Positions 1-18,423 of a stretch of DNA of 20,000 bases are shown piece by piece. Position 1 is the stretch's first letter, and every line of letters starts with the position of its first letter. The DNA is from an uncultured virus (IMG/VR IMGVR_UViG_2690315929_000005). Lineage: Duplodnaviria > Heunggongvirae > Uroviricota > Caudoviricetes. The notes beneath the pieces are model-generated. The model ran no database searches. It saw only the letters and a list, made by a program, of their open reading frames with translations, and was not told the origin of the DNA. The stretch lies in IMG/VR virus record IMGVR_UViG_2690315929_000005, positions 49,611 through 69,610 of that record. The stretch is one strand, 5' to 3'. A program made the position numbers and the translations under genes.

Positions 1-68
1 TAAATGCTGGTGGATTCGCTCACCCTGAAAACCACTCTAGCGATATTAAGGAATTATCTTTTGCTGAA

Positions 69-1916: not shown

Positions 1917-1918
1917 TT

Positions 1919-3166: not shown

Positions 3167-3336
3167 GAACGTTTCTAATTGCAGGTTATGGCACAACACT
3201 AAAAGGCCTAACACTAGGCATTAACAAGCAAGTGATATCTGCCAGCCTAAAAGATGCTCAGTCACAAGTGGTGCGAGAGGCGCAACGTGACGGTTTAATT
3301 GATATCCGAATCAACTATGCGCGTGAGGTGAAGTAA
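3163..3336 (+). CDS. Hypothetical protein (57 aa, not in ORF track)
   Basis: MRTFLIAGYGTTLKGLTLGINKQVISASLKDAQSQVVREAQRDGLIDIRINYAREVK. GGGAG RBS, with ATGA and TAATG overlaps that fill the gap exactly. Confidence 0.7.
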   Translation: MRTFLIAGYGTTLKGLTLGINKQVISASLKDAQSQVVREAQRDGLIDIRINYAREVK

Positions 3337-3530
3337 TGACGCAAGAACAGAAACGTGAAATAGAGCAATTACTAGAACCGCACCAGTTAAAAGTATTAAT
3401 GCTAATCACCTTACTTTCTACGTGGTTGGAAGCAGAGGAATGCGATGAAACCAGAAACATGATCTGGGCTGTATTGACTGTTGTTTATTCAATTAGGGAT
3501 GAAATGAACGAAGCAGTAGAGGGTAAGTAA
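3336..3530 (+). CDS. Hypothetical protein (64 aa)
   Basis: GAGGTG RBS; TAATG coupling at both ends. Confidence 0.65.
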   Translation: MTQEQKREIEQLLEPHQLKVLMLITLLSTWLEAEECDETRNMIWAVLTVVYSIRDEMNEAVEGK

Positions 3531-4126
3531 TGAATATTTCTAATATTAACGCATTCGAACACAGTGAACAGGGTGTGATCCTCATTACTGAAGCAGCCAA
3601 CCAAGAGGCTATCAGCTATACCGAAGCATTAGAGGTATTAAACGATGGTAGCTTTGATGGTGATCTGATTTTTGGCTTTGAATTGGTTTTAGCTATCTGC
3701 AAGGGAGAGTGTGACGGCTTTTTTAATCCAACTAATCAGCAGCGTGTGATCTTGTGGCGTTGGATTGTAGCCGCTTCGTTTGTCGCAGAGCAAGCAGACA
3801 ATAACGGGACGCATCAAGTTGACAACGGCAGAGGTAAAACCATTACCGCCGCTATTTATCGCAACAAACATGCAACGTTAACCGTCTATGCCGCAAGCGA
3901 ACGTATGTTACTAGCTAATCACATTGAGGGCGCTGCTTATGAGCACTATGGGGCAGAGAATGGCGCAATTATGGCAGTAAAGATATATAGGGATTTTATC
4001 AATCTTGAGCCTAAACGCGGTTGCCGACTATCAGAACGAGGGCGTGAGGGGTTATCTGTTCTTCATGATGATCTAATTAGGGCGATAGAAGATGGTGAAT
4101 TTAGCGACACCGTAACCATTCATTAA
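3530..4126 (+). CDS. Hypothetical protein (198 aa)
   Basis: Long coupled ORF with GAGGG RBS; no family recognised. Confidence 0.75.
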   Translation: MNISNINAFEHSEQGVILITEAANQEAISYTEALEVLNDGSFDGDLIFGFELVLAICKGECDGFFNPTNQQRVILWRWIVAASFVAEQADNNGTHQVDNGRGKTITAAIYRNKHATLTVYAASERMLLANHIEGAAYEHYGAENGAIMAVKIYRDFINLEPKRGCRLSERGREGLSVLHDDLIRAIEDGEFSDTVTIH

Positions 4127-4140
4127 AAGGACGCAATGAC

Positions 4141-4485
4141 ATGATAACGAAGAATTTTAAAGTTAATTCACTAGCGAATAGCTACGCAGCTGCTATTTAC
4201 CACGATATTACCACACGTAATGGCGGTGATTGGTTTTCGATGAAGGTAGGCAACAAAACGATTGAAGTTGCCATTATTGACGGTGTGAAAGGTATTCGAA
4301 TGCTCGTTGATAGCTATTTGCTGAAAGCCTTAAAAGGGCAATATCCCACATGGGAGGCAGTTGCTATTGGCTTGATAGAGCAATGTGTCATTAATGGATA
4401 TGTCACAGGTTATGGTCGAGAGGTGTGGCAAAGCATGATTAATGATATGGGCGACTCTTTCGCTGATAAGGGGGCGTTTCAATGA
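4141..4485 (+). CDS. Hypothetical protein upstream of primase (114 aa)
   Basis: AAGGA RBS; stop overlaps the primase ATG (ATGA). Confidence 0.75.
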   Translation: MITKNFKVNSLANSYAAAIYHDITTRNGGDWFSMKVGNKTIEVAIIDGVKGIRMLVDSYLLKALKGQYPTWEAVAIGLIEQCVINGYVTGYGREVWQSMINDMGDSFADKGAFQ

Positions 4486-7202
4486 AGCCGATTGATGTTA
4501 TCCGTGAGGTGAAGCTGAAAGCTAACGGACAATGGCAAGCTATATTATCTCACCTTGGGGCAGAAGTGCCCCTAAACACGCACACGGCTTGCCCTCATTG
4601 TGGTGGTAAAGACCGGTTTAGATTTGATAACAAGGACGGTAATGGCACGTTTATTTGTAATCAGTGCGGTTCTGGTGATGGATTAGATCTCGTTCAGCGT
4701 GTGTTAGGTGTCAGTGTAACCGAAGCTGCAAAAGAAGTTGCTAACATAATTGGTATTGATACCCGTTCAGCGTGTCCACCAGCCTACCGTCGTTCTGAGA
4801 TAAAAGCACAACAAGACGAACTGAAAGCGCAGCAAGCCGAAAAACAAGCTAACGAGAAGAGAGAGAAGCATAAACGCTTTATTGAACGGTATAACCGCAC
4901 TATTGCCAATGTTCAACGTGGGAGATCTGACTATCTCAAGGCTAAGGGGCTGCATGGTTTTGAAATGGATTTATTACAGGACGGTTCTCTTATCATTCCA
5001 TTATTGGACGCTGGTGGCGTTATTACTGGCGCACAAACTATTAAGCCTAATGGTGATAAGCGTTTGCTGTCAGATAGCGCAAAGTCAGGCAGTTATTACC
5101 CCATCAATGAGCCTGTAAACGTCTCTACGGTGATTATCGCTGAAGGATTAGCAACCGCCCTAACGTGTCACTTAATCCAACCAGAAGCGCACACAGTTGC
5201 GGCAATTGATGCGGGAAACCTCATTCATGTAGCTAAGGTAATGCGAGTTAAGTATCCAGAGAGCAAGATTATTATTGCTGGGGATAACGATATTAAGCCA
5301 GGCCAAGACAATACAGGGAAATTAGCGGCAGAAAAGGCAGCTAAGGTGGTTAATGGTGTCGCTGTTTTACCCCCTACTGATGATAAAGCCGATTGGGATG
5401 ACTACCGCCTATCACACGGTATTGAGGCGGCAAGACAGGCATTTAATGAAATATTAGAGCAGCAAGGAGGCAAGGTGATGATAGAAACTAGGGTAAGCAA
5501 TGAAGTCGTTAAACCTGACCCAATGAAGCCACGCATTGAATCACGTAAAGAGGGGGTATTTCTTGTTACACCGAAAGCCGACAAGGAAACAGGGGAAATC
5601 ATCAATCATGAGCAGTGGTTATCAAATGCTATCAAGCGGATCACTAAAGGTGTTAATGACCTCAATCAAGAGTATTTGATTATTGAGTGGGGGAATAACA
5701 ATGTTCAGGCAATACCGACAGGCGATATAGGAGAGCGTGAAGGATGGCGCACATTAAAAAACGCGGGGTTATTTGTCACTACCAAATCAGGATTAAGACA
5801 GTCGTTTTCTGATTGGCTGTTACGTCAACCATTCAAAGAGGACTGGAGTATTACGAATAAATCAGGTTGGCACAAAGGCGCATATATCATGCCCGATGGT
5901 TCAATTATCGGCACACCTGAACAACCGATATTTTTTAACGGACAAAGCGCAGCAGCAACTGCCTACAAAGCAAGTGGAACGGTGGAAAGCTGGCGAAATG
6001 ATGTAGCGCGATTGGCTAACGGTAATAGTTTTATGATGTTTACGATTGGCGCCGCATTATCTGCACCGATGACGAGTCTTACGGGGGCTGACAGCTTTGG
6101 TATTCACATTTACGCTCAATCGACAGCAGGGAAAAGTACCACGGCAGATATGGCCGTGAGTTTATACGGTGATCCTGATTTACAGCGCTTAACATGGTAT
6201 GGCACTGAATACGGTATGACTAACGAAGCTGTAGCGCACAATGACGGACTTTTGTATTTGGATGAAGTCGGACAAGGGGCAGACCCTAAACACGTCTACA
6301 AATCGGCTTACACGCTGTTTAATGGTAAAGGTAAGATCCAAGGTGCGAAGGAGGGCGGCAATAGGCAAGTTCAAAGCTGGCGGACAGTGGCCATTAGTAC
6401 AGGAGAAAAGGATATTGAGACCTTTTTATTAAGTTCGGGTGTGAAAGTCAATGCAGGGCAGCTAGTACGATTACTCAACATCCCTATTGAACGCGCCACT
6501 GAACTACATGAATGTGAAACAGGGAAAGCCCACGCAGATTTAATTAAGATAAATTGCCGTTCTAGCTATGGGGCCGCAGGACGTTATTGGATTGAATATC
6601 TATCAAATCATAAAGATGAAGCTAAAGAAGCCTATAGAACTGCACAACAACGCTGGAGTAAATTAATTCCGAGCAGTTACGGAGAACAAGTTCATCGAGC
6701 CAGTGATCGATTCGCTACTATAGAAGCGGCTTTGATAATGGGCCGTGTGATTACTGGCTGGAATGAACAAGATTGTAAGGATGCTGTTCAAGCCGCGTTT
6801 AACGCTTGGATTGCTGAGTTCGGCACAGGTAATAAAGAGATTGAACAGATTAAAGATCAGACGATCGCTTTTTTAAGTACGTATGGAATGAGTCGATTTG
6901 CTCCATTGCCTTATGATGAGCAATCTTTACCTATCAGAGAACTTGCAGGGTACAGAGTTAAATCAAACACGCAGGATGAAGCGCCCATATTATTTTATAC
7001 ATTGCCAACAGTATTTAAGAACGAGATAGCCAAAACGTTCAATACGGACACTTTCGCTGATGCCCTGCATAAACTAGGTATTTTAAAAAAGCCTTCCAAT
7101 GGGAAAGGATATCAAGGCAGAACACCGCGTTTGAAACATTTAGGCAACATTCAGCAACGCGCCTATATTTTGATGCTTGTTCCTGATGAAGAGGAGGAGT
7201 GA
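4482..7202 (+). CDS. Primase-helicase replication protein (P4-alpha-type Zn ribbon, TOPRIM, DUF927/NTPase)
   Basis: Zn ribbon CPHCGGKDRFRFD...CNQCGSGDGLDLV; TOPRIM IAEGLATA...IAGDND...DWDD; DUF927 region GWHKGAYIMPDG; Walker A-like AQSTAGKST and Walker B-like YLDEVG. Confidence 0.92.
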   Translation: MKPIDVIREVKLKANGQWQAILSHLGAEVPLNTHTACPHCGGKDRFRFDNKDGNGTFICNQCGSGDGLDLVQRVLGVSVTEAAKEVANIIGIDTRSACPPAYRRSEIKAQQDELKAQQAEKQANEKREKHKRFIERYNRTIANVQRGRSDYLKAKGLHGFEMDLLQDGSLIIPLLDAGGVITGAQTIKPNGDKRLLSDSAKSGSYYPINEPVNVSTVIIAEGLATALTCHLIQPEAHTVAAIDAGNLIHVAKVMRVKYPESKIIIAGDNDIKPGQDNTGKLAAEKAAKVVNGVAVLPPTDDKADWDDYRLSHGIEAARQAFNEILEQQGGKVMIETRVSNEVVKPDPMKPRIESRKEGVFLVTPKADKETGEIINHEQWLSNAIKRITKGVNDLNQEYLIIEWGNNNVQAIPTGDIGEREGWRTLKNAGLFVTTKSGLRQSFSDWLLRQPFKEDWSITNKSGWHKGAYIMPDGSIIGTPEQPIFFNGQSAAATAYKASGTVESWRNDVARLANGNSFMMFTIGAALSAPMTSLTGADSFGIHIYAQSTAGKSTTADMAVSLYGDPDLQRLTWYGTEYGMTNEAVAHNDGLLYLDEVGQGADPKHVYKSAYTLFNGKGKIQGAKEGGNRQVQSWRTVAISTGEKDIETFLLSSGVKVNAGQLVRLLNIPIERATELHECETGKAHADLIKINCRSSYGAAGRYWIEYLSNHKDEAKEAYRTAQQRWSKLIPSSYGEQVHRASDRFATIEAALIMGRVITGWNEQDCKDAVQAAFNAWIAEFGTGNKEIEQIKDQTIAFLSTYGMSRFAPLPYDEQSLPIRELAGYRVKSNTQDEAPILFYTLPTVFKNEIAKTFNTDTFADALHKLGILKKPSNGKGYQGRTPRLKHLGNIQQRAYILMLVPDEEEE

Positions 7203-7235
7203 TTTCTTTCACGTCAGGAAAAAACGCTAATTATG

Positions 7236-7612
7236 GTTGTCTCAGTTGTCTCAATAAGAGAATAGAAAAGATAACTTATTAATATTTATAGTTATTATGA
7301 TTATTTTCTGAGACAACCCTGAGACAACATAAGCCCGTTTTGAGACAACCTAAGGCGTTTTTGAGACAACGCTGAAAAGTTTAGGTTAGCCCTTGGTTGG
7401 TTAAAAAAGTGGGTGAGACAACCGAATCAAAGGCTGAGACAACACGGTAATGAGAAAATAACCCTTAAAAATCAATTTATTGTAAAAATAAGGCGTGGGT
7501 AATCATGAGATTGAGACAACTCAAAATCATCAAGTTGTCTCAGAAAAAAATATTTAATATAGCTTAATCAATAGGTTGTAAGTATTGAGACAACTGAGAC
7601 AACTGAGACAAC
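7236..7612. repeat. Iteron cluster / putative replication origin: 13 copies of TGAGACAAC
   Basis: Forward copies start at 7309, 7320, 7341, 7362, 7414, 7435, 7512, 7586, 7595 and 7604; reverse copies at 7236, 7245 and 7534. AT-rich spacer at 7254-7308; immediately downstream of the primase. Confidence 0.88.
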
Positions 7613-7658
7613 CCCTGATCGCGTATCTAATAAAAAGTTTTTTGAGGAAAAAGAAATA

Positions 7659-8113
7659 ATGGTCAGAGTGACTTTCTTATTAAGAAAAGATAACAATAAT
7701 GTAACCCCCCCCCACCAGCAACGAACACACCAAAAAGCGCACGGACTAAAAGGTCACAGGAAGCCTCAAAGCAATCGAAGAAGAAAAATAAGGCAGATGC
7801 TCACGCTAAAAAGAAACAATACCGTATCGACCGTATAGCGAAGCACTGGACGATATTTAATGAACCAGAGGCTAAACCACTGATGATAGGCATCAAGGAA
7901 GTCATGATTGCTGAGGTTAAAGATAAAGGGTTGGATATTCCAGAGAGCCATATTAAACAGGGATTACGATCATACATTAGTCGTAAAACCTATCTAAAAG
8001 CTCTTACTCTGGGCGGTAATCGTTTTGATATGAACGGGCGTCCTAAAGGAGAAATCACACCTCAACAACAAGCATTAGCAAAACAAATGCTGGTGGAATG
8101 GGCTAAAAAATAG
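7659..8113 (+). pseudogene. ProQ/FinO-family RNA chaperone, frameshifted at a C9 tract
   Basis: ATG 7659 (GAGGA RBS) reads MVRVTFLLRKDNNNVTPP and then stops at 7838. The ProQ domain (HWTIFNEPEAKPLMIGIKE...LRSYISRKTYLKALTLGGNRFDMNGRPKGEIT) lies in another frame that is open from 7700. One extra C in 7705-7713 gives a 151-aa protein. Confidence 0.8.
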
Positions 8114-8187
8114 CAATGTAACAACCGCCAAAGCATAAACTGAGGTGATTATGTATAATTTGCCTTATCAACTAAAAGGATCACTAA

Positions 8188-8700
8188 ATGAAAAAAATCA
8201 TGATAACGGCTCTATTGGCTTTATTTTTATCGGGATGTGATAACAACCCGCCAGCACCCTACGGGTTTAAGTGGGGGCAGACTGTGGCGGATATACAAAA
8301 ATTAAATATTGCTGGCGCTAGCGAGTGCAAAGACCCAGCTTGCTCTATTATGGTAACACCTAGCGGAGCACATGGATTAACAACATTAATTTTCTATAAA
8401 GATTCAGGATTGGCACAAGTGGTACACTCAGGGCCACTGAACGAAACCAACAAAGATGATGTAATGGCAAGGTTTAATCATATTAGTAATGAGTTGAAAT
8501 CAATTTATGGTAATCCAACCAGTGAAATAATACGTATTGATGATGAGAATAACTTTATTGACTGTTTAAAACAAATTAGCTGTAGAGATATCAAGGCAGA
8601 ATATAACAAAGATGGTTATCGGGCATTTATCTCAATAGGAACGAGAAAAAAAGACGGGAGATTATTCATTTTCACCGATCACCAAAGACCTCTAAAATAA
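8188..8700 (+). CDS. Lipoprotein of unknown function (170 aa)
   Basis: Signal peptide MKKIMITALLALFLSG-C with lipobox LSGC; AAGGA RBS; followed by a terminator. Confidence 0.85.
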   Translation: MKKIMITALLALFLSGCDNNPPAPYGFKWGQTVADIQKLNIAGASECKDPACSIMVTPSGAHGLTTLIFYKDSGLAQVVHSGPLNETNKDDVMARFNHISNELKSIYGNPTSEIIRIDDENNFIDCLKQISCRDIKAEYNKDGYRAFISIGTRKKDGRLFIFTDHQRPLK

Positions 8701-8711
8701 GCTATACAAAC

Positions 8712-8736
8712 AAGCCGACCTTGAGTCGGTTTTTTG
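8712..8736 (+). terminator. Rho-independent terminator
   Basis: AGCCGAC-CTTGA-GTCGGTT followed by a T run, just after the lipoprotein stop. Confidence 0.8.
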
Positions 8737-8871
8737 TTCTTATAGCCCCTATCATATTAATTTTTATAGAAATCTCCCTGTTTTATAGTCGTTTGTATTA
8801 ATCAATTATTGATTATTTTTTAATCCATTATATAATTGTATTGTATATAATTACAGGTTGGATAAATAAAC

Positions 8872-9045
8872 ATGAGTAAGCAAAAAAGAACCTTCAAGCC
8901 AGTGTCAATTGATAGTGAAATAATAGAACGCGTCAAAAAGTTTAAAGAAAAACAGGGTGAAAAAGATTTTTTCATTCAACGAGCACCTATTAGTCAATTA
9001 ATTCAAGGGTTACTAATTAATGCCTTACATAACGAGGGATTCTAA
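8872..9045 (+). CDS. Small putative DNA-binding protein, ribbon-helix-helix-like (57 aa, not in ORF track)
   Basis: MSKQKRTFKPVSIDSEIIERVKKFKEKQGEKDFFIQRAPISQLIQGLLINALHNEGF. Its stop overlaps the next ATG (TAATG). The strand-helix-helix pattern is an inference. Confidence 0.65.
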   Translation: MSKQKRTFKPVSIDSEIIERVKKFKEKQGEKDFFIQRAPISQLIQGLLINALHNEGF

Positions 9046-9386
9046 TGGAAAAATTACAACGGTTAGCAAGCACTATAGCCCAGATTTATGTTGATAATTT
9101 AAAAGCTGAAACAGGAGAAACATTAGTAACTTATAACGGTATCACAGGTAAAGTTACCCCTGAATTACTGGCCGCTGGATTGTTTGATAATGCGGTATTT
9201 GCGGTTAAAGCGGATGGAGAAGAGATTGACGTTGAAGGTAAGGCGTATGATTTACTATCCCCGTTAATTAACTTATCAACAAAGCCTTACTCCCTAACGG
9301 GACAGGCATATAAATTGATTAATTTTCTCAATGTGCAGGCACTAAAAGCAGGAAGCACTTTATCAACCTTATCAGTTGTACATTAA
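9045..9386 (+). CDS. Hypothetical protein preceding the tape-measure-like gene (113 aa)
   Basis: GAGGG RBS; coupled to the upstream ORF; no family recognised. Confidence 0.75.
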   Translation: MEKLQRLASTIAQIYVDNLKAETGETLVTYNGITGKVTPELLAAGLFDNAVFAVKADGEEIDVEGKAYDLLSPLINLSTKPYSLTGQAYKLINFLNVQALKAGSTLSTLSVVH

Positions 9387-9402
9387 TCACAGGGAGAAAA
9401 TT

Positions 9403-12400
9403 ATGTATCATGGCGAAGGTTACACAGTATATGTAGATGCCGATACGGCCGGCCTTCTTGAGGCTAACCGTGAAATCGAAAAAGCAAGAAGAAAAATAAA
9501 TGATTTAGGCAACGAAGCAAACACCACAAGCAAATCATTTACTCAATTCAATAAATCAGCAATCGCGGTTTCCAGTGCGTTAAAAATGCCTGAAATAAAC
9601 CGCTTATCACGTCAAATGAGTGAATTGGCGGGGCAAATTGGCGCTGCTTCAATGGCAACAGATAAGGCAACGACTGTTAACGCGCGTTTTACAGGTGTGA
9701 TTAGCAATGTGTCTGGGCTACTAGGGGCGGGATATGTTTCTAATATTGGTAGCGCTACTGTTTCGCTCTTGCAACATACTCAAGGGGCAATTAATGCCAC
9801 ACAAGCCGAGGTTTTACATACTCGCGCTATTCAAATGAAGGCTCAGGCATTGCAAGCTGCTGCCTCCCAAGAAGTGATTAACGCCAAAAATCTTAAAGCA
9901 TCAACACAAGCAGAGCTAAAAGCAGCTCAGGCAGCGTTAGAACACGTTTATTCATTAGAAGGCTCTAATGATATCAAGCAGCGTAATTTAGAGTCACTTA
10001 GGGCACGACAGGCAGCAGTGCTCAAGGATGCTGAAATAACTTATCAAATGACTGCGAGTGAAGAAAATTTGCAGCGAGTGACTAAAGCCAGTAATGCGCT
10101 ACATGCTACGGAAACTAAAATAAAAACGCATTTAGCTACAACCGGAAAAGAAATTGCGCTTGTTGAGGCTAGAGTCGCTAAAGCAAAAGAAGCAGAAACA
10201 CTAGCAACTCAAAAATTAAATGCGGCATTAGCATTAGAGCAAAAAGCGAAAGCCACACTAGCCACTACAACAGACGCGGTGACCGTAGCTAATGGTCGCG
10301 CAGCCCAAGCGGCTAGAAGTCAATCCATTGCTATGCAAGGATTGCGAGGTGTTGTGGGGTTATTAGGTGGCCCAACGGGTGTTTTTATGTTGGCTACTGC
10401 TGGCGTGTATGCGCTATATAACGCGATGAATGATGACACCGCAACGAAAGAGTTTAATGACAGAGTAGATCAGTGGATTGATAAAATTGACGAACTGTCA
10501 GCCAAACAGGCTCGCGCTGTGGCTAACCGCTTAGGCGAGAAGATAGCGGAAACAACCACACAACTAGAGGGACAGAAAAAAAGTCTTTCCAGTGTTAATT
10601 CAGATCTAAAAAGATATGAAAATAGACTTGCTGATATTAATAAAGAGATTCAAAGACAAAAAGAACAAGGTTTTGAAGTAGGTAAGTCTTACGTTCAGGA
10701 TGATATAGTAAAGGAAATCGAAAAACTCACCAAGAAACAGCAGCAGTATGAGCTGATTATTTCAGAAGGTGAGCAGAATATTCGTCGCTGGACGGTATCA
10801 CAAGGTAAAGCCGCTAATATTGCAAAAGAGAGAGCAAAACAAACAGACGAACTCAGCAGAGCGGAATTAATTTATCAACGCCAAGCTAAAGGGATAGTTG
10901 ATGCTAACCAACAATTAGCTAGATCACTAGAGCTAGGCAGTGACGCAGCCGTTAAGAAAGAACAAGCCATCAAAGAGTTAGAAAAGGCTTTAATTGCTGA
11001 TGGTTTTGTTAAAGACTCCGAGTTATTTAAACAAAAAATACAAGAGTTAACGGATGAGCTTGATAAGAAGGCAAGTTTAAACCTTGCTAACTCTCTTGCT
11101 GAGATAGAGCAACGAACACAAGCCCTCACTATTGGCATGAAAGACGGTAAGCCTGCACTGGATGAATACAATGCCTCGTTACTGCTTATGCAAATGGGGA
11201 TAAAAAAAGGTTCGGCTACCTACAATACCGAACTCCCGAAAGCGATAGAGGCAATACGCAATTTACGTGAAGCTCAAGAAGCCGCACTAAATAGCAAATC
11301 AAATGCTAACAAGTCGTTGAAAGCGATTAATAAGGCAAATGATGCCATTAAAAAACAACAGCAACAGACTGAGACGTTAAGAAAAGAATTTGAATTATTG
11401 AGTTCTGGCGCAGCTAACGTAAATAGAGAGATGGCTATTTTTAACGCTGTTCAAAGTCTGGGTGCTGATGCGACAGACAAGCAAAAGAAAGCTATTGCTA
11501 AAGAAGTCGCCGAAGTTTTTGACCTCAAACAAAAAGTCGATGACTTTATTAAGTCGCAAGAAATTACTCCAGAGTTAAAACTTGCAAGAGCATTTAGACA
11601 AGAATCTGAAGAGCTTAAACGCATGTTTGATAATGATTTCATTGATGAAGAAACGTTTAAGGCGTTAGGCAATAAAGCAATGAAGGCATTTGATGCTGGA
11701 ATGGCTGAAATAAAAATAAACGCGGTTATTGACCCAATAACTGAAGCCAAAGGGCAATACGACCCGATACAAGCACTGGCTAACGAACACGCTAAGAAAC
11801 TTGAGATGATCCGCCAATTCGAAACAGAAAAAGGCGCTATTACTCAGCGTGGCTTAGAGTTAATGAATGCCGCTAATACTCAATATGAGCAAGACCGGTT
11901 AAATGCTCAATGGGAGATATGGCGCAATCAAAGCCAAGCCAATCAATTCTTAGCTGATGGGTTGGACGCATTAGGACAGCGCTCTACTAACGTACTCACA
12001 GGGCTATTAACTCAAACACAATCCATTAACGATGCTTTCCGTAATGTCGCCTTAACCATCGTAGACCAAGCCGTTGGCGCTCTGGTCCAAATGGGTATGC
12101 AACAAGTTAAGAATATGATTATGGGTGAAAGTATGGCGACAGCCGCTCAAGCATCTGCATTGGCTCAGGCTGCGGCAGCACAAGCGGCATGGGCACCAGC
12201 GGCATTAAGCGCATCAATAGCCACATTAGGCGCAGCAGTAGCAACGGGAACATCATCATATACGGCGGCTATGGCAGCTAGTAAAACGATGGGGTTGGTT
12301 GCTGGTGCTCGTAAAAATGGTGGACCCGTAAATGCTGGCTCTATGTATCGAGTGGGTGAAGGTGGTAAGCCTGAGATATTCAAAGCATCTAACGGTAGTC

Positions 12401-12633
12401 AGTACATGATACCGGGTGATAATGGTCGAGTTATTAGCAATCGACAAATGGGTAAAGGTGGTAATGGTGTCAGCATGGGTGATATGAACTTTACATTCCA
12501 AGTTCAAGCACCTAATGGCATTACTCAAAAGGAGGCGCAACAAATACAGCAAATGGTGAGAGGTACGGTTTATGACGTACTTGGTAACGAAATGCGTAGC
12601 GGTGGTGCTTTGGAAAAAGTAAGAAGTTGGTAA
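9403..12633 (+). CDS. Siphophage tail tape-measure-like protein (~1076 aa)
   Basis: N-terminal YTVYVDADTAGLL, long Ala/Gln/Lys-rich coiled coil, hydrophobic GLLGGPTGVFMLATAGVYALY, AAWAPAALSASIATLG, and C-terminal GARKNGGPVNAGSMYRVGEGGKPEIF...MIPGDNGRVISN typical of lambdoid TMPs. Start at ATG 9403 after AGGGAG. Confidence 0.85.
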   Translation: MYHGEGYTVYVDADTAGLLEANREIEKARRKINDLGNEANTTSKSFTQFNKSAIAVSSALKMPEINRLSRQMSELAGQIGAASMATDKATTVNARFTGVISNVSGLLGAGYVSNIGSATVSLLQHTQGAINATQAEVLHTRAIQMKAQALQAAASQEVINAKNLKASTQAELKAAQAALEHVYSLEGSNDIKQRNLESLRARQAAVLKDAEITYQMTASEENLQRVTKASNALHATETKIKTHLATTGKEIALVEARVAKAKEAETLATQKLNAALALEQKAKATLATTTDAVTVANGRAAQAARSQSIAMQGLRGVVGLLGGPTGVFMLATAGVYALYNAMNDDTATKEFNDRVDQWIDKIDELSAKQARAVANRLGEKIAETTTQLEGQKKSLSSVNSDLKRYENRLADINKEIQRQKEQGFEVGKSYVQDDIVKEIEKLTKKQQQYELIISEGEQNIRRWTVSQGKAANIAKERAKQTDELSRAELIYQRQAKGIVDANQQLARSLELGSDAAVKKEQAIKELEKALIADGFVKDSELFKQKIQELTDELDKKASLNLANSLAEIEQRTQALTIGMKDGKPALDEYNASLLLMQMGIKKGSATYNTELPKAIEAIRNLREAQEAALNSKSNANKSLKAINKANDAIKKQQQQTETLRKEFELLSSGAANVNREMAIFNAVQSLGADATDKQKKAIAKEVAEVFDLKQKVDDFIKSQEITPELKLARAFRQESEELKRMFDNDFIDEETFKALGNKAMKAFDAGMAEIKINAVIDPITEAKGQYDPIQALANEHAKKLEMIRQFETEKGAITQRGLELMNAANTQYEQDRLNAQWEIWRNQSQANQFLADGLDALGQRSTNVLTGLLTQTQSINDAFRNVALTIVDQAVGALVQMGMQQVKNMIMGESMATAAQASALAQAAAAQAAWAPAALSASIATLGAAVATGTSSYTAAMAASKTMGLVAGARKNGGPVNAGSMYRVGEGGKPEIFKASNGSQYMIPGDNGRVISNRQMGKGGNGVSMGDMNFTFQVQAPNGITQKEAQQIQQMVRGTVYDVLGNEMRSGGALEKVRSW

Positions 12634-12699
12634 TTAAAAGCGTGGATAAAAACCATAATAGGGCAGATTTCTGCCCTTTATAGTATTGAAGGGTACATA

Positions 12700-13068
12700 A
12701 TGATAAAGATAAAAGTATCTAAAAGGAAAGGTCGCAATCAATCATTTCTACAATATTGCCAGCATGTAGATCAACGAGTATCACGGGCTATGCAACGGTT
12801 TCTTTTCGATGCTGGAGCACAATCCGCAATTTATACGCCTATCGATACATCAACATTGATTAATAGTCAGTTTAGGGATGTTACTGTTAATGGTACAAAA
12901 ATAACGGGACGTATTGGTTACTCCGCCAGCTATGCCGTTTATGTGCATGATCCGAAAGTTAAGCAGAAATTTAAACGACCAACAGCTAAAAAAGAGTTCT
13001 TGAAAAAAGCGGTCGAGGAAACGCTACCTAATTTAACTAAGTATATTCATGAAGAATTGAAGAGTTAG
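12700..13068 (+). CDS. HK97 gp10-like tail completion / neck protein (122 aa)
   Basis: SAIYTPIDTSTLINSQFR...GRIGYSASYAVYVHD...AKKEFLKKA matches the TPvDTGtL...YAxYVh...FL pattern of the HK97 gp10 family. Confidence 0.8.
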   Translation: MIKIKVSKRKGRNQSFLQYCQHVDQRVSRAMQRFLFDAGAQSAIYTPIDTSTLINSQFRDVTVNGTKITGRIGYSASYAVYVHDPKVKQKFKRPTAKKEFLKKAVEETLPNLTKYIHEELKS

Positions 13069-13432
13069 CCTTCATACTTTCGTGAACAGTACGCGCGTGG
13101 AAGGAAATATGCAAAAAACAACCAAAAAGAAACCAACCATTATTTTTATGATGTACCGACAATGCGCCTAATTGTGACGTGTGAACAATCCATCAACATT
13201 CACATAAGAGCCGATAGAGTAACAGGGGCAATCATGAGGAGTTTGTGAGGCAAGCAATCATTGAGAAGCTAAAAAAAAGCAACAGCACAAATAGCTAAAT
13301 CGCTATATGTATGTGTCAATAACTTGGTTATAGCTATATATATTGTGTTTACGTTAAAAAAATAGACAGGTAATTACAAGCTCATAATGATTAGCCCCTA
13401 GACAAGATAAATATATTCAGTATTATTTATCC

Positions 13433-13505
13433 CAACAGTGCCCCTCATAACCTCTACGTAGAACGGAGAAATCTGGTTTGCGATACGTTTGGGGCTTTCT
13501 TTTAT
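13433..13505 (+). ncRNA. Candidate structured RNA upstream of the abi gene (abiF-RNA-like antitoxin or attenuator)
   Basis: GCCCC (13440-13444) pairs with GGGGC (13491-13495), followed by TTTCTTTT; internal palindrome TCTACGTAGA; possible promoter TAGACA-16-TATTAT at 13399-13426. Confidence 0.55.
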
Positions 13506-13533
13506 CTACTATCTGATAATTTTCCATGCTGCT

Positions 13534-14529
13534 ATGCACCCTCTAAAACCTCATCTAACGTATTTTGACCAAATAAAAAAGCTAGAAAAACGAGGAATGA
13601 GTTTTGAGGATCTACCTCCTGAGCAGGCGGTAAAGAAAATAATGAATATTGGATATTACAGGCTATCTGGGTATTGGTATCCATTCCGTAAGTTAAAGTT
13701 AATCCCACCAGTAGCACCCGATGAAGCCAGACGTGAAGAAACATTCCTTGAGGGTACAACCTTTACAACGGTATACGCACACTATTTATTTGATGTAAAA
13801 CTAAGAAGTTCTATTTTTTATGGAATAGAACGAATTGAAACTTATCTTAAAGCAAAAATAGCTTACGAACTAGGTAAAGTATCCCCTACGGCATACAAAG
13901 ATAAGAATATCATCCAATACAGACATCACTACCGACATGATACATGGCTAGAAAAGTTAGATTCTTTAATAGAGCGAAATAGTGATAAAGATTGTATACG
14001 ATGGAATTTAGATAAGTATGGGGATATTCCTATATGGGCTATCGTTGATATTTGGGATTTCGGTACAATGTCTCGCTTCTACGGAATGCTTGAAGATAAA
14101 TACAAACATCAAATTTGTAAATCGCTTGGCTTTCTAAAGCCTAACTCAGCAAATGTAAGAGATGGACTGAAAACAGCATTAGAGCACCTTAATACAGTTA
14201 GAAACAGGTGTGCCCACCATGCGCGTTTATGGAATACCGATTTTTCAGACTCAAAAATTAGCATCGATGTGTTAGATAATATTGATTTAACAGCCTCGCG
14301 CTTGTCTCCAAAAAGCCCTGAACTATCAAGAATGGCAGGTATCATATTTTTAATATGGAGTCTGACCAAGAGAATAAGTTGTAATTCTACATGGCTAAGT
14401 TCAGTAAATGATCATTTAGAAAAACATCAGGGCGTTATTCCGTTTAATTCAATGGGATTCGATAATAACAATATCTCAGGATTAAAAAATCTATTGGATA
14501 AGGAAAAAGAACAATCAGCCCAATCATAA
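13534..14529 (+). CDS. Abi family protein (Abi_2; AbiD/AbiF-like HEPN RNase, 331 aa)
   Basis: KPHLTYFDQIKKLEKRGM...IGYYRLSGYWYPF...YLFDVKLR...IERIE...IPIWAIVDIWDFGTMSRFY and HEPN motif RNRCAHH. Start placed at ATG 13534 rather than TTG 13489. Confidence 0.9.
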   Translation: MHPLKPHLTYFDQIKKLEKRGMSFEDLPPEQAVKKIMNIGYYRLSGYWYPFRKLKLIPPVAPDEARREETFLEGTTFTTVYAHYLFDVKLRSSIFYGIERIETYLKAKIAYELGKVSPTAYKDKNIIQYRHHYRHDTWLEKLDSLIERNSDKDCIRWNLDKYGDIPIWAIVDIWDFGTMSRFYGMLEDKYKHQICKSLGFLKPNSANVRDGLKTALEHLNTVRNRCAHHARLWNTDFSDSKISIDVLDNIDLTASRLSPKSPELSRMAGIIFLIWSLTKRISCNSTWLSSVNDHLEKHQGVIPFNSMGFDNNNISGLKNLLDKEKEQSAQS

Positions 14530-14623
14530 GCCAACCCAAATCAAATAAACTTTAATGATTTTCAGGCGCGCTAGCAATAAGTTTTCGGACACGTTAGAAA
14601 GGTTGTAAATAGAGGCTGATAGC

Positions 14624-14728
14624 GACAAATATAGACATTAAATCCTAACAAATCCTAACGTTTTTCTAATACCTAGATCCTAAGTTTTCTTAAGGTAAAT
14701 TGCGCATTCAATGCTAAGATTTGCTAAG
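14624..14728. repeat. Cluster of short ~10-bp-period direct repeat pairs
   Basis: GACAAATATA-GACATT; AAATCCTAAC x2 (14640-14659); TGCTAAG x2 (14712, 14722); CCTAAG-TTTT-CTTAAG. Confidence 0.6.
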
Positions 14729-14822
14729 GTTTTACTATCCACTTAGTATTATGATTAGATAGCTGATAACTTCAGTATATGTTGGGAGTAGCTGTAATGA
14801 TAAAACTAATTTGAGAATAGAA

Positions 14823-15482
14823 ATGCTAATAAATAAATTAAAAAATAAAAATGAGTCACCAGAAGACATTATAGAGAATTTGATATATGCCTATCAAAAC
14901 TCAAGAGAAACATATGTTGAAAACAAGAGAGTGTTTCGTGGGCGTAGTCATTCTGTCTCGGGTATTTTTGAAGATCTATTTGCTGATTATTTATCAAAAA
15001 ATTTACCTGATAGTAATCAATATTTCGTAGACCAGCAGTTGTTTTCATCAGCAGCAAATATACGATTTTTCCCAGATATATTAATTATGAATGATAAAAT
15101 AAATCGCGATATCATAGACTTAAAGCTTGATTTTGGATGGTCTAGAAATGATGTTTTTTCATTTTGTGATACGTGGAATAAAAAAATAGATAAGTTAAAA
15201 GGAACGAGTTTCACTTTCAATGATGGGATAACTAAAGAAAAAAAGAATGGTTTTTTTTCTGATAATTTAAAATATCATGTAGTAGTTTCGACAAAATTAA
15301 ATAATGGAAGTAATTTTATTGAAATAAAAGATAAAGTGACAAAAAATTTGGAGCATGTTGAGTTATATATACTCACTGACAAGGTACATCCGAATGATTA
15401 CAATAGCACTGCCGAAGAACGGGTAAAAAATATACATATATGCATGAGTGAATTTTCAAGGTTAATGAATAATTTATCATAA
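14823..15482 (+). CDS. Putative PD-(D/E)xK nuclease-fold protein (AT-rich cargo)
   Basis: SGIFEDLFADYL...FFPDILI...IIDLKLD gives E...PD...DxK spacing. Very low GC. Start is ATG 14823 or TTG 14811. Confidence 0.6.
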   Translation: MLINKLKNKNESPEDIIENLIYAYQNSRETYVENKRVFRGRSHSVSGIFEDLFADYLSKNLPDSNQYFVDQQLFSSAANIRFFPDILIMNDKINRDIIDLKLDFGWSRNDVFSFCDTWNKKIDKLKGTSFTFNDGITKEKKNGFFSDNLKYHVVVSTKLNNGSNFIEIKDKVTKNLEHVELYILTDKVHPNDYNSTAEERVKNIHICMSEFSRLMNNLS

Positions 15483-15594
15483 TAATATAATTCTTTTAGT
15501 TCTTAACGGACAAAAATATAGTTTAAATTGTCCGTTATTATAGATAGCAAAATTCGGTGATAACAAATTTTATACGTTAAAATCAATAGTTGCT

Positions 15595-16023
15595 TTAGTC
15601 CTGCAAATAATTCAATTTATTTACTATATTCTTGTGACGCCTCCATGCAGAATAGATATCTTTATCCCACGCTTTACCTGCCTTAGTTTGATAGCCTGCC
15701 TCATTAATCCGTTTAGCAATAATGCGCCCATTGGCTACACCCTCAGACAGTACAGAATTAACCACAGAAATGACAGCAGACTCATTATAGGTATAAGGTG
15801 GGATATCTGCCTTGCCAGCAATTAAAGATGCGAAAGACGATTCTAGGCGTTCCACCAGCGACAGTATGCGAGCGTCAGGATTACTGTCTGGGCGGTTTAG
15901 CTTCTCCTTGATAGCAGAGACTATCCATGCTGTTTTATCGCTACCAGAGTTCGATGCAGCATCATTAAACAGGGTTTGTAGTTCAGCAGGGAGACGAAAG
16001 GCAATAAGATTAGATTTACTTAT
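15595..16023 (-). pseudogene. RHH plus C-terminal DNA-binding protein (142 aa) with ATA in place of the start codon
   Basis: The frame extends upstream of 15855 as (ATA)SKSNLIAFRLPAELQTLFNDAASNSGSDKTAWIVSAIKEKL, an RHH pattern, with GGA upstream and an in-frame TAA four codons before. C-terminal IIAKRINEAGYQTKAGKAW resembles the recombinase-type DNA-binding motif. Confidence 0.65.
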
Positions 16024-16119
16024 GATAATAGTCCGTTATTAACTCAGTGAGCGCTTATTATATCAGCGTATAACACTGTTATACAGATTAGAAAATATAT
16101 CATTGCTAGTGGATTTAAT

Positions 16120-16800
16120 GAATAAGTCCATAACTTAAAGTTAGAGTAACCTACTGTAAAACAAGCAAAGCGTATTCTTGCGCCTTGTAACGGATTGAAT
16201 ACATAGCAAAGCTCAAAAATGAGTGCTGTACTGTGGTGATTATCGCCATAGTCGGAAAGGGTAACAGTTGAAATGCTACCCTTGGTATCAAAACCACAAA
16301 TTAGTGATTTTAGCTAAAGTAGCTAAATATTAGCCAATACAGCTAACCACATAAACATAGTGGTACTATGATGATCCGTTGACTTTCAAACGTGAGGTAT
16401 CCACTAAGGTATCCACCGAAAAGGCTATATTTTACTGGATACTTTACCCACTAAATGTTGACAATTGTTAACATCAGAACCAGACAAAACCTGACATCAT
16501 TTACTTATTTTAGGTACGCAATAAATACGTATTTAATTCTCGCAATTCACTATAATTAAATAAAATCATGGTATTACATAAAGGTATGCAGAATAGTGCG
16601 CATTGAAATGATATTATTCGCATCGGTAACTATTTGATTATCCCGAGGCCGTCACTTTGGGGCGTACTGAAATAGCGTATTTCAATCTGCTAACGTGGTT
16701 GCCATTTTGATGGTTGCCACTTTGGTTGCCAGCAAAACGGCATATTTTACGCTAGTGGATTGATAACCTTTGATTGTTCCAATTCAGCACAATCAAGGTA
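16120..16800. repeat. Non-coding array of heterogeneous short palindromes and direct-repeat pairs
   Basis: Examples: ACTGTGGTGAT-T-ATCGCCATAGT (16230-16252); AAGGGTAACA-7-TGCTACCCTT (16257-16283); AAAACCAC-6-GTGATTTT (16290-16311); AGGTATCCAC x2 (16395, 16407); ATGTTGACAATTGTTAACAT (16455-16474); TGGTTGCCA x3 (16696, 16711, 16723); TTGATTGT-11-ACAATCAA (16770-16796). Confidence 0.75.
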
Positions 16801-16833
16801 TGGCGGAAATAACCACTCCTTTGAGGTATAGCC

Positions 16834-17022
16834 ATGTTACAACGAGAAACAATAGAAGCCGTTATGATGGAGTTAGCCCACCAGCAAGGGCATTCACTCA
16901 ATGGGCGTGATCGATTAGCGATTAGAACAGGTGTAGCACAGACAATGCAGGCTAAAGAACGTCACAGACGAAGAATGACAGCACCTACCTACCAATGGAC
17001 GAAGCCAGCACCAAAAAGATAA
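16834..17022 (+). CDS. Small basic hypothetical protein (62 aa)
   Basis: GAGGT RBS 5 nt before the ATG; protein-like sequence. Confidence 0.65.
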   Translation: MLQRETIEAVMMELAHQQGHSLNGRDRLAIRTGVAQTMQAKERHRRRMTAPTYQWTKPAPKR

Positions 17023-17146
17023 TAGGTCGCCTTGAAATTAAGGGGACGTGAGGCTCTGAAATCGGAGGCTCGTCACTGGCTGGCAATATTCCAATAATGG
17101 CTACGAGGTAAAAGTAACCACAATGCAAATAAGCACTCTGGATAAA

Positions 17147-17431
17147 TATCAATAAGTTATCTATGCTGAGAGATAAGATTACAACAAAGAGCGACGGCAA
17201 GATTACGGCAAGGTATTAACAATCAGGTTTCAGTCGGTCAATTTGACCGTTAGCAATAAAAACAATGTGTTGCCAACTCTTACCATTGGTCACTGAAACG
17301 ATGACCAATGAGCGTTAATCTGGTTTTGTTACAGAATTAAGTATTATCAATCAGTTGTATTTTGATTCCGTCGATTTACCGGAATTAAGTATAATCAACA
17401 GGTTATATCTACATACGGGATAATCCCGTAT
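17147..17431. promoter_or_regulatory. Palindromes interleaved with IHF consensus sites
   Basis: WATCAANNNNTTR matches at 17147, 17345 and 17393. Perfect inverted repeats CGGTCAA-T-TTGACCG (17235-17249), CATTGGTCA-9-TGACCAATG (17284-17310) and ATACGGGAT-A-ATCCCGTAT (17413-17431). ACGGCAAG x2 (17194, 17205). Confidence 0.7.
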
Positions 17432-17547
17432 CATCATGGATAAATTAACGTTTAGATCACCCCTAGAAATTGGAATTATTACCTATACAACCTGAATCCT
17501 ACCAGTGTTTTATTTTAACCAATAGCTTATATTGTGATGGTATCAAG

Positions 17548-17835
17548 ATGAATAAACCAAAAATGAGAAAAGCAAAATCAATCAGGATCACCACATCAGG
17601 AACGGTAATCAAAGCCCCTGAGCGAGTTAAAACAGCCACAGGTAAAGTTATGGCCACAATGACTATTCAGGCTGAGAGTGACAAGCGTAGCCCGTACCCA
17701 TTAAAGATAGTGGCATTCGATATTAACGCGCTGGAGCTAATGACCTGCCAGAAAGGAAACAAAGTAACTGCTACAGGTCGCTATGAATGGTTTAATGGTT
17801 ATCAGCTAACAGGGGCGCAGATAGTTGCTGGTTAG
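17548..17835 (+). CDS. Single-stranded DNA-binding (OB-fold) protein-like
   Basis: SGTVIKAPERVKTATGKVMATMTI...IVAFDINALELMTCQKGNKVTATGR follows the SSB OB-fold pattern and lacks an acidic tail. Start uncertain (17548 or 17563). Confidence 0.65.
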   Translation: MNKPKMRKAKSIRITTSGTVIKAPERVKTATGKVMATMTIQAESDKRSPYPLKIVAFDINALELMTCQKGNKVTATGRYEWFNGYQLTGAQIVAG

Positions 17836-18146
17836 TAAAACTTAGTATCAATAGTTACATTAGGCTACTGGCCTACTTATACGCTTGACGTTAATGTTAT
17901 ATAAATTAATTTCTATAAGTCCGAATTGAGCATGGTTAAATGTACGCTAAAGTTAGTTGTATCAAAACTTACATGATGAATGAGATAAAAATATCCAGCA
18001 ACTATAGGTAACTATATAAGATGTTTTTGTTGGTCTAATGGCATATTTTCTCTGTATTTATTCGCTTCTGGCATTTTAGCCTTATAGGTTAGATTCAATG
18101 TGGGTCGATAGACTTGCTTGGATAACAACCTAAGAGAAAGCTTAAA

Positions 18147-18332: not shown

Positions 18333-18423
18333 ACACAGATTGAATCATACTCTCAGAATTTATAATTTAGTTGAGCTACCCTGAAAAATTCGAGGTAGTT
18401 CTCACTAATCAAAGAGGATGGTT

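What the first reader, a model, noticed from the sequence alone, without database searches (positions are those of the whole stretch)
8872..13068. Satellite late module encoding only tail parts: tape measure plus tail completion protein, no head or packaging genes
Seen: after the primase and origin lies a four-gene cassette (57-aa RHH-like, 113-aa unknown, ~1076-aa TMP-like, HK97-gp10-like). All four ORFs are open, with no tail tube, tip, capsid, portal or terminase. Established: in siphophages the gp10-like gene normally lies upstream of the tail tube and TMP, so this order argues against simple prophage decay. Known enterobacterial satellites (P4, PICI, cf-PICI) mainly act on heads or packaging. 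Inference: this element may build chimeric tails from helper parts, alter tail length or DNA ejection for its own genome, or poison helper tail assembly. It would be a tail-hijacking satellite class.
Basis: partly seen in the sequence, partly recalled or inferred. Interest (0 to 1): 0.88.

Follow-up and report, generated by a model that had tools for sequence, protein, structure and literature searches.

The report
Phage satellite with own tail core
A small parasitic DNA island common in Proteus, Providencia and Klebsiella carries its own copies of the two proteins that run inside a phage tail, plus a likely copy of a helper phage's DNA-packaging signal, so it probably rides in borrowed phage particles while controlling how its own DNA enters the next cell.

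Summary
Observation confirmed. The cassette sits in a ~20-kb integrative island with a PICI/P4-like left arm; three att-bounded relatives carry the same four genes and no other structural gene. The genes are under purifying selection (TMP dN/dS 0.14-0.40). Best reading: chimeric tails with a satellite-made DNA-injection core, perhaps to evade or impose entry exclusion. No function was shown. Satellite-encoded TMPs are already published (PLE, EPIP, F5), so this is an apparently undescribed family and a new variant, not a new category. The scan found this cassette before in another genome (e1-6224437).

The parts
1..17853 (+). Integrative satellite-like island (part in the window). It starts left of the window at the tRNA-Arg 3' att core (contig 46376-46426), followed by a P4-type integrase (contig 46592-47803) and alpA. 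A second element is inserted at about 17853, so attR is off the contig.
   Evidence: Sisters with 97-99% identical integrase have attL and attR 18.9 and 19.8 kb apart. The tRNA-Arg identity of the att core is recalled; ARAGORN found no whole tRNA.
69..1750 (+). AntA antirepressor and Ash/Icd-like gene with C4 antisense RNA (1417-1504) and isrK (1289-1366): P4/PICI-like regulatory arm
   Evidence: Pfam PF08346, PF10554; Rfam RF01695, RF01394
4482..7202 (+). Zn-ribbon/Toprim/DUF927 primase-helicase
   Evidence: phrog_1139, E 3e-159
7235..7618 (.). Probable replication origin: direct and inverted TGAGACAAC iterons
   Evidence: the origin role is inferred
7659..8113 (+). ProQ/FinO-like gene, in two pieces here and a single 145-150 aa ORF in relatives
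8188..8700 (+). Hypervariable lipoprotein (lipobox LSGC, Asp at +2), candidate entry-exclusion factor paired with the TMP
   Evidence: Mature parts 21-99% identical between alleles and co-vary with TMP aa 385-445. Followed by a terminator-like hairpin at 8712-8732. No family or fold match. The inner-membrane +2 rule is recalled.
8872..9045 (+). 57-aa basic protein, probable small regulator (RHH label unverified)
   Evidence: Conserved 45-100%; dN/dS 0.09-0.31 in 3 informative pairs of 8; no family hit
9045..9386 (+). 113-aa protein (phrog_19131); candidate TMP chaperone by position only
   Evidence: Lies directly before a TMP gene in 9 of 9 newly found genomes. Sister islands have annotated tail assembly chaperones in this position. 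The AF2 model (pLDDT 87) has no convincing fold match.
9403..12633 (+). Tape measure protein, 1076 aa, mosaic: private N-terminus, hydrophobic segments 313-338 and 928-951, hypervariable patch aa 385-445, phage-matched C-terminal ~270 aa
12700..13068 (+). Tail completion protein (TCP; HK97 gp10/Neck1-like), 122 aa, with a private first 24 aa
   Evidence: phrog_5; 58% identical to the neighbour prophage's copy over aa 25-121; satellite copies fall on one side of a branch, support 94/76
13076..13095 (+). 20-bp exact copy of nt 164-183 of the neighbour prophage's Sf6-like terS: probable pac (packaging start) mimic
13429..14529 (+). Variable cargo: Abi_2/AbiF-family gene (13489-14529) preceded by a 75-bp element also present after the prophage's Q gene
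   Evidence: absent or replaced in many sisters
15595..17835 (.). Conserved right-arm genes: ~138-aa protein (minus strand, partly matched here), 62-aa protein (16834-17022), SSB-like gene (17470-17835)

Best explanation
The island is a non-autonomous satellite of temperate, headful-packaging siphophages. Shown: it has integration, regulation and replication genes, no head genes, and conserved copies of the two proteins that lie inside a long tail (TMP and TCP). Inferred mechanism: when a helper is induced, the island excises and replicates. The helper's Sf6-type terminase starts packaging at the terS-derived 20-mer and fills helper heads (no capsid-shrinking gene was found, so probably ~2 island copies per head). 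The island's TMP docks on the helper's tail tip through its phage-matched C-terminus, is coated by the helper's tube protein, and is capped by the island's own TCP, which fits the private TMP N-terminus. The result is a chimeric tail with helper outside and satellite injection core inside. The likely benefit (least certain step, about 0.4 on its own) is control of DNA entry: the private TMP middle would escape exclusion aimed at helper TMPs, while the island's lipoprotein recognises the co-varying TMP patch and excludes particles carrying that allele.
For: Conserved cassette: 4 of 7 genome loci, 7 of 7 viral loci, 1 of 1 metagenome locus, 3 further Providencia genomes, and a diverged Klebsiella-type clade with the same order (L088-L093). 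Many of these are near-identical copies. dN/dS is below 1 for all four genes. Three att-bounded relatives show no other structural gene. Of the 34 loci closest to the TMP C-terminus, 26 are phages with lambda-like tips; the ones with a full TMP in the locus are mostly 87-98% identical over the last 90-aa window and the 811-900 window, share both alleles of the 901-990 window with the satellites, and are only 14-25% identical over aa 361-450. L002's TMP end resembles that of a prophage in its own genome. TMP N-termini score 8-40 bits against a phage profile in 10 TCP-bearing islands and 24-67 bits in 9 TCP-less ones; a Providencia sister without TCP scores 42 against 8-11 for those with it. In phage 80alpha the TCP binds the TMP N-termini and the DNA end (PMC11661146); SPP1 TCP is needed to route DNA into the cytoplasm (PMC11099176). 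The 19-mer occurs 24 times in viral contigs: 14 inside terS, 7 right after this TCP, 3 in sister islands. It is the most synonymously conserved window of 114 among 12 close terS genes (0.98 against a median of 0.71). Sister islands carry unrelated TMPs in the same slot, two types with tail assembly chaperones. Lipoprotein-patch co-variation: Mantel r 0.78, p 0.0005 (11 loci); r 0.57, p 0.0003 in a less redundant set of 11, against r 0.18-0.33 for other TMP segments; repeated in the Klebsiella-type clade (3 envelope-protein types, 3 TMP alleles, 2 loci each). Exclusion proteins that act through TMPs are known (Ltp, HK97 gp15: PMC3952083, PMC10883804). Precedent: PLE chimeric tails (PMC12987554).
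Against: Nothing was shown to be expressed, packaged or incorporated. Sequence matches fit a decoy that blocks tail assembly equally well. The neighbour prophage has the matching terS word, but its TMP end is 21% identical over the last 56 aa and it has a different tip; only 1 of 5 tail-matched phage records tested has the word in its own genes, so a single helper matching both is not the rule. The lipoprotein pairing is not one-to-one: L355 and L007 have lipoproteins 82-86% identical to the window's but patches only 57% identical to the window's (72% to each other), and L356/L357 pair a L003-like lipoprotein (73-74%) with a patch closer to L002/L013 (66-69%). Linkage alone could give part of the signal. 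In 20 phage TMPs the upstream exported protein does not track the TMP middle. No mechanism is evident for sending chimeric tails to satellite-filled heads. TCP is missing in 8 of 9 distant members. Some copies are broken (TMP in L007, L063, L348; lipoprotein in L009). The 113-aa protein has no chaperone-like fold match. The position of the Sf6 pac site is recalled, not read.
Confidence: 0.62

Rival explanations
1. Decoy or poison: the island's TMP and TCP enter helper tail assembly mainly to make helper particles non-infectious, or excluded by island-carrying sister cells, as a defence. Island transfer does not need them.
For: The tip-matched C-terminus would let it compete for tips. Tails are built apart from heads, so helper DNA could receive island TMP. 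Satellite-borne tail blockers exist (Tai, PMC11364771; Rta). TCP-less SPP1 particles eject DNA outside the cell.
Against: A poison need not keep full length (1076 aa against 1048-1122), a cognate TCP with a co-diverged N-terminus or chaperones. Known tail blockers are not full-length TMPs (Tai and Rta passages seen; their small size is recalled). The pac-like word shows investment in the island's own packaging.
Confidence: 0.17
2. The TMP module tunes the recipient range at the inner membrane or periplasm rather than evading exclusion. The lipoprotein is neutral cargo or a general defence gene linked by descent.
For: The variable patches lie beside the two hydrophobic segments. TMPs are thought to form the injection conduit. 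Alleles are shared between Proteus and Providencia. The lipoprotein pairing is imperfect and absent in phages.
Against: L002 (Providencia) matches L013/L014 (Proteus-type) at both lipoprotein (91%) and patch (84%) while the DNA between them follows the host lineage, which simple linkage does not explain.
Confidence: 0.11
3. Tail-length or ejection-timing tuning for a smaller or concatemeric genome.
For: TMP length sets tail length; PLE tails are 10 nm shorter and EPIP tails longer. TCP may time ejection.
Against: The island TMP length lies inside the range of the matching phages, and no capsid-size gene was found.
Confidence: 0.06
4. Decayed prophage remnant or neutrally hitch-hiking captured DNA.
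For: A complete prophage with homologous TMP and TCP is adjacent. Some relatives have broken genes.
Against: Non-phage gene order; dN/dS 0.06-0.40; same architecture across genera; at least four unrelated TMP families in one slot; intact att-bounded islands.
Confidence: 0.03

Closest known systems
Vibrio cholerae PLE tail module (TMP, TAC, BhuB; Mathur, Boyd et al., Nature 2026, PMC12987554)
   Same: The satellite encodes its own TMP and is shown to build chimeric tails; tmp alleles come in distinct groups; a neighbouring gene (rta) acts through the helper's TMP.
   Different: PLE parasitises a lytic myophage, replaces the tip-side hub (BhuB) and remodels capsids. This island matches temperate siphophages, keeps a helper-like tip-docking end, replaces the head-side TCP, has a PICI/P4-like left arm, a pac mimic and a co-varying lipoprotein.
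E. coli F5 satellites of phage SUSP1 (bioRxiv 10.64898/2026.10.15.759431)
   Same: Enterobacterial integrated satellites whose only structural genes are two tail proteins, one a tape measure; no capsid, portal or terminase.
   Different: The second protein is a baseplate protein; replication genes occur in 2.7% of F5 members; no TCP or pac-like word is mentioned in the passages seen.
Gram-negative PICIs / P4-like satellites (SatelliteFinder definitions, PMC10085698)
   Same: tRNA-targeting integrase, alpA, ash/icd with C4 RNA, primase plus iterons, cargo hotspot.
   Different: No capsid-morphogenesis gene, no terS gene in this member, no psu-delta-sid; about 20 kb; carries tail genes, which the PICI model forbids, so such islands would be rejected or left as low-confidence Type C.
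Mycobacterial EPIPs (PMC12822802) and tmp-bearing cf-PICIs (legend of Extended Data Fig. 10, PMC12987554)
   Same: Satellite of a temperate phage with its own TMP and no tube or tip genes.
   Different: They encode head or head-tail joining genes and terS; this island encodes none.
Superinfection-exclusion proteins acting on TMPs (TP-J34 Ltp lipoprotein; HK97 gp15)
   Same: An envelope protein whose specificity is set by the incoming TMP.
   Different: No sequence or fold similarity was found; here the link is only allele co-variation, inside a satellite.

Membership tests
PICI | Integrase | tested here: met
   403-aa tyrosine integrase left of the window; homologues in sister islands hit phrog_1
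PICI | alpA/merR/stl regulator | tested here: met
   alpA homologues of sister islands (81-87% identical to the contig's copy) hit phrog_66/2790
PICI | Primase-replicase module | tested here: met
   DUF927 primase
PICI | Capsid morphogenesis gene | tested here: not met
   No capsid-family hit in 28 window ORFs or 56 ORFs of three bounded relatives; several ORFs have no family at all
PICI | Own small terminase gene | tested here: not met
   None in this island; terS-family genes occur in some distant sisters (L352, L354)
PICI | No tail genes | tested here: not met
   TMP present; tail genes are forbidden in the model
P4-like satellite | psu-delta-sid operon | tested here: not met
   No such hit
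P4-like satellite | alpA, ash/epsilon region with C4 RNA | tested here: met
   PF10554, RF01695
cf-PICI | Capsid, portal, terL and head-tail genes | tested here: not met
   Absent
PLE | TMP + TAC + BhuB tail module | tested here: not met
   TMP yes; no baseplate hub hit; TAC only in sister modules; TCP instead
PLE-like function | Satellite TMP incorporated in virions and needed for transfer | not testable with these tools
   Needs virion proteomics and deletion mutants
F5 satellite | TMP or baseplate gene and no capsid or packaging gene | tested here: met
   criterion
F5 satellite | F5-type recombinase and attB | not tested
   F5 sequences were not fetched; no E. coli genome of 5426 covers 80% of the Klebsiella-type cassette DNA
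Tail assembly chaperone (113-aa ORF) | TAC family or fold | tested here: inconclusive
   No Pfam hit; best structural Z 6.0 to unrelated helical domains; position matches the TACs of sister modules
Sf6-type pac site (20-mer) | Lies inside an Sf6-like terS and is constrained at DNA level | tested here: met
   terS matches Sf6 gene 1 protein, E 1.5e-53; top synonymous conservation. That Sf6 pac maps to these codons is recalled.
Sf6-type pac site (20-mer) | Directs terminase cleavage and packaging | not testable with these tools
   Needs mapping of virion DNA ends

The most novel reading that the evidence does not exclude
A widespread, undescribed family of enterobacterial satellites with a swappable 'injection-core cassette'. 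Each island installs its own TMP (plus TCP or chaperone) inside helper tails, matched to a helper's tip by recombination, and pairs it with an allele-specific envelope protein. The island thereby enters cells that exclude the helper, excludes rival islands, and possibly tags helper virions made in the same cell so that island-carrying sister cells shut them out.
Probability: 0.3. Interest if true: 0.9.

Novelty: new variant of a known kind. Interest (0 to 1): 0.72.

Why it matters
The PLE paper leaves open why satellites make chimeric tails. This family offers natural allele series to test one answer, control of DNA entry, in temperate siphophages of easily grown enterobacteria. It also gives natural matched pairs for mapping TMP function by region (TCP-binding start, exclusion-sensitive middle, tip-docking end), a long-standing gap in how long-tailed phages inject DNA. 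The islands appear common (the window's exact TCP is on 789 contigs, the Klebsiella 108-aa marker on at least 1000) and carry defence cargo, yet the standard PICI model forbids tail genes, so current surveys probably miss them.

Tried and rejected
A structure-based test of TMP-TCP binding could not be run, so binding rests on the 80alpha structure and on sequence co-variation. Fold searches gave nothing usable: 113-aa model against viral structures, 0 hits at E<=0.001, and against solved chains, best Z 6.0; lipoprotein model against PDB, best E 0.011; a wider search on the lipoprotein had not finished. The Atlas gave no named family for either protein. TCP had 0 sequence matches in PDB. Expression: two raw RNA runs had 0 reads on the stretch, and two RNA-library assemblies hold it as flat contigs, which shows presence and not transcription. 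The promoter scans were at chance level. attR was not found on this contig or in five related virus records. Two regions (L024, L025) came from the wrong contig and were dropped. The ProQ-like family search mostly hit chromosomal proQ (136 of 201 genomes); of 11 regions fetched, only L097 was a sister island. Phage morons do not track TMP middles. My script labelled L300 'lambda-tip' wrongly; it has the neighbour-type tip and is counted so. The 75-bp element has no Rfam match and folds no better than shuffles (z -1.6). The Sf6 pac coordinates were not found in four held papers. A chance model gave a shared 20-mer in 0 of 100 simulations but a shared 18-mer in 11 of 100, so the word rests on its conservation and not on its length. 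Literature searches for this family found no description; one search returned 0 papers. Subscription papers, the figure of Extended Data Fig. 10 and bioRxiv supplements were not seen and could list such elements.

Full report
Setting. The window is the last 20 kb of a 69.6-kb provirus record. The first ~46 kb is a complete temperate siphoprophage by ORF order, with integrase, replication, Q, lysis, terS/terL, portal, capsid, neck, tube, chaperone, TMP and tip genes (names other than terS are read from sequence and position). After a tRNA-Arg 3' core (identity recalled) a second element begins: P4-type integrase, alpA, antA, ash with C4 and isrK RNAs, DUF927 primase and iterons. The host is probably Proteus, inferred from the names of close relatives.

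Observation. The four ORFs are open and correctly placed. The long one is a TMP (phrog_1107) and the last a tail completion/Neck1 protein, TCP (phrog_5). They are 32% (aa 228-1034) and 58% (aa 25-121) identical to the neighbour prophage's copies. Of 80 TCP loci in viral contigs, 73 are in phage neck context and 7 follow a TMP in this island. Nine distinct satellite TCPs lie on one side of a branch against 53 phage ones, support 94/76: not rejected, not shown.

Is anything missing outside the window? attR is not on this contig, because a second element is inserted at about 17853. Three Providencia relatives with the same four genes are bounded by direct repeats: G008 about 21.6 kb and G009 about 26.6 kb (tRNA-Ser), G007 about 22 kb. 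I scanned 56 ORFs of 70 aa or more from them against PHROGs: all of G007 and G008, and for G009 all but L007:1-13700, which tblastn had mapped largely to window homologues. The only structural hits were TMP and TCP. Many ORFs have no family, so an unrecognised structural gene is not excluded.

Conservation. The cassette is in 4 of 7 genome loci (the other 3 are two prophages and a tube-chaperone-TMP locus), 7 of 7 viral loci, 1 of 1 metagenome locus, and 3 of the 6 further Providencia regions fetched (L355-L357; L345 lacks TCP, L354 has another TMP, L358 is a remnant). Six viral loci of a Klebsiella-type clade keep the order exported protein or lipoprotein, 56 aa, 108 aa, TMP, TCP, at 42% and 56% identity for the 108-aa protein and TCP. 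A profile of the 113-aa family hit 10 of 401 genomes; in the 9 new ones it always lies after a primase and directly before a TMP gene (8 full length, 903-1245 aa; 1 cut at 210 aa), with TCP in 1 of 9. Pairwise Nei-Gojobori dN/dS against the window: TMP 0.135-0.40 (9 of 9 pairs); TCP 0.06-0.20 (4 informative pairs of 10); 113 aa 0.11-0.25 (9 of 10; one pair 0.65 on three changes); 57 aa 0.09-0.31 (3 informative of 8). L007 was left out of the TMP count because it is frameshifted.

A packaging signal. Eight bases after the TCP stop is a 20-bp exact copy of nt 164-183 of the neighbour's terS, a close homologue of Sf6 gene 1 protein. The 19-mer occurs in 24 viral stretches: 14 in terS, 7 after this TCP, 3 in sister islands with other modules. 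Among 12 close terS genes collected by peptide patterns, codons 55-61 are the most synonymously conserved of 114 windows; among 23 more diverse ones the window ranks seventh, behind the 5' end. P22's pac lies inside terS (PMC9611059, passages). That Sf6's pac maps to these codons is recalled from Leavitt 2013, which I could not see. A wastewater assembly switches to different cargo exactly after base 13095. I read the word as a pac mimic; this is inferred.

TMP anatomy. The C-terminal part is helper-matched. Of the 34 best loci for the last 120 aa, 26 are phages with lambda-like tips, 5 are satellites, 1 has the neighbour-type tip and 2 are unclear. In the lambda-tip phages listed with a full TMP, the last window is 93-98% identical (one 67%), the 811-900 window 87-98% (one 73%), and the 901-990 window has two alleles shared with the satellites. 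The neighbour's TMP is 21% identical over the last 56 aa, so it is probably not the tail donor for this allele. One phage record (G218) matches both the word and the TMP end; 3 of 5 tested lack the word, and the hit in G011 is in its sister island. The N-terminus is private: 23-33% identity to five phage-type TMPs over aa 1-60. Against a profile of 49 phage TMP starts, 10 TCP-bearing islands score 8-40 bits and 9 TCP-less ones 24-67; these are not independent samples. In the 80alpha neck the TCP binds three TMP N-termini and the DNA end (PMC11661146, passages), and SPP1's TCP is needed to deliver DNA to the cytoplasm (PMC11099176, abstract and Discussion). TMP plus TCP is therefore the inner core of the tail. 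Length is unremarkable: 1076 aa against 1048-1122 aa.

Lipoprotein and patch. Among near-identical islands, TMP aa 1-360 is about 100% conserved but aa 385-445, after the first hydrophobic segment, comes in alleles 41-62% identical to the window's. The upstream lipoprotein is just as variable. The two correlate (r 0.78, 11 loci; r 0.57 in a less redundant set of 11 with four new loci, other segments 0.18-0.33, one of them at p 0.03). A Providencia island matches Proteus-type ones at both sites while the DNA between follows the host lineage. The Klebsiella-type clade repeats the pattern. Against this: the window's own lipoprotein type goes with a different patch in L007 and L355, L356/L357 mix types, and phages show no such tracking. 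Exclusion through TMPs is known for Ltp and HK97 gp15 (PMC3952083 and PMC10883804, passages). I rate the exclusion link at about 0.4.

A swappable slot. Sisters with 97-99% identical integrases hold a lambda-type TMP with a Phage_TAC_4 chaperone, or a 714-aa TMP with Phage_TAC_9, each followed by an exported protein and the same word. Others hold 600- and 792-aa tail proteins. What is kept is 'a TMP', not one captured fragment.

Comparison. PLEs are shown to build chimeric tails with their own TMP, TAC and BhuB, and the paper notes tmp genes in PLE-like elements and cf-PICIs (PMC12987554; passages and section 8; figure and supplements not seen). EPIPs encode a TMP (PMC12822802, part 1 of 2). 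E. coli F5 satellites encode only a TMP and a baseplate protein (bioRxiv 10.64898/2026.10.15.759431, passages; supplements closed). Tai blocks tail assembly (PMC11364771, passages). The PICI model requires capsid and terS genes and forbids tail genes (PMC10085698, passages). Four searches found no description of this family or of a satellite TMP-TCP pair. The scan had noted a near-identical cassette in another genome and several unrelated TMP-bearing islands; these are unchecked notes, and my reading was recorded before the first look-up.

Verdict. A real, conserved, apparently undescribed family of enterobacterial satellites that works like PLE's tail module but is not a PLE, PICI, P4 or cf-PICI. 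Chimeric tails for its own transfer 0.62; decoy 0.17; recipient-range tuning 0.11; length or timing 0.06; decay 0.03. New variant of a known kind; interest 0.72. Every functional step is inferred.

Noticed in passing
window 13429-13503 and contig 20074-20148: A 75-bp element upstream of the island's Abi_2/AbiF gene recurs at 96% identity in the neighbour prophage after Q, with no Abi gene beside it. AbiF is neutralised by an upstream RNA in other bacteria (10.1101/2025.04.15.648962), so this could be an orphan antitoxin RNA used by the phage. No Rfam match, weak fold.
   Followed up: partly
window 17117-17160 and contig 20171-20214: A second, 44-bp, inverted match (95%) between the island's right arm and the same late-promoter region of the prophage; possibly a shared late regulatory site.
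   Followed up: no
L065 6373-10246, L063 13972-17846, L067 12525-16597, L354 5295-9062, L097 8913-12294: Sister islands with the same backbone carry unrelated tail modules: Phage_TAC_4 + lambda-type TMP; Phage_TAC_9 + 714-aa TMP; 792-aa TMP + terS; 600-aa lytic tail protein + terS-like gene.
   Followed up: partly
L003 13760-14020, L007 13737-14000: Two tandem variant words after TCP that read like other terS alleles (one resembles the FMQQYA type of L136-L140), separated by a small ORF that is broken in the window; possibly pac sites for more than one helper.
   Followed up: partly
window 17853-20000: A second mobile element (alpA/xis-like genes, Beta-protein gene) is inserted near the island's right end; in G009 the same insertion carries a helicase and an integrase.
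   Followed up: partly
L015 37562-41023 (Klebsiella phage ST101-KPC2phi6.1): A complete phage carries a homologue of the 113-aa gene and a phrog_14435 protein just before its TMP, the same families as in Klebsiella-type islands, suggesting module exchange between islands and phages.
   Followed up: partly
L268-L300, gene before the TMP: Proteus-type prophages have at least nine different exported proteins or lipoproteins directly upstream of their TMP.
   Followed up: partly
L006 7540-12415: Tube, chaperone and TMP genes beside a repressor-like gene and chromosomal regulator genes at a contig end in Proteus vulgaris, with no head genes upstream; a tail-only locus or remnant.
   Followed up: no
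L001 17760-19097: An exported 276-aa ORF with a YRADSR motif, recalled as typical of ADP-ribosylating toxin A subunits, followed by a 164-aa exported ORF, near the island in Proteus myxofaciens.
   Followed up: no
L088 11497-11781, L346 10556-10996: HGGxSTG-like or terS-like small genes (labels recalled; PHROG families unnamed) follow the TMP in distant members.
   Followed up: partly
L001, L002, L003, L007 downstream of TCP: A run of TTTTCGGACACGTTAG-like repeats follows the pac-like word in these islands and is replaced by Abi_2 cargo in the window.
   Followed up: no
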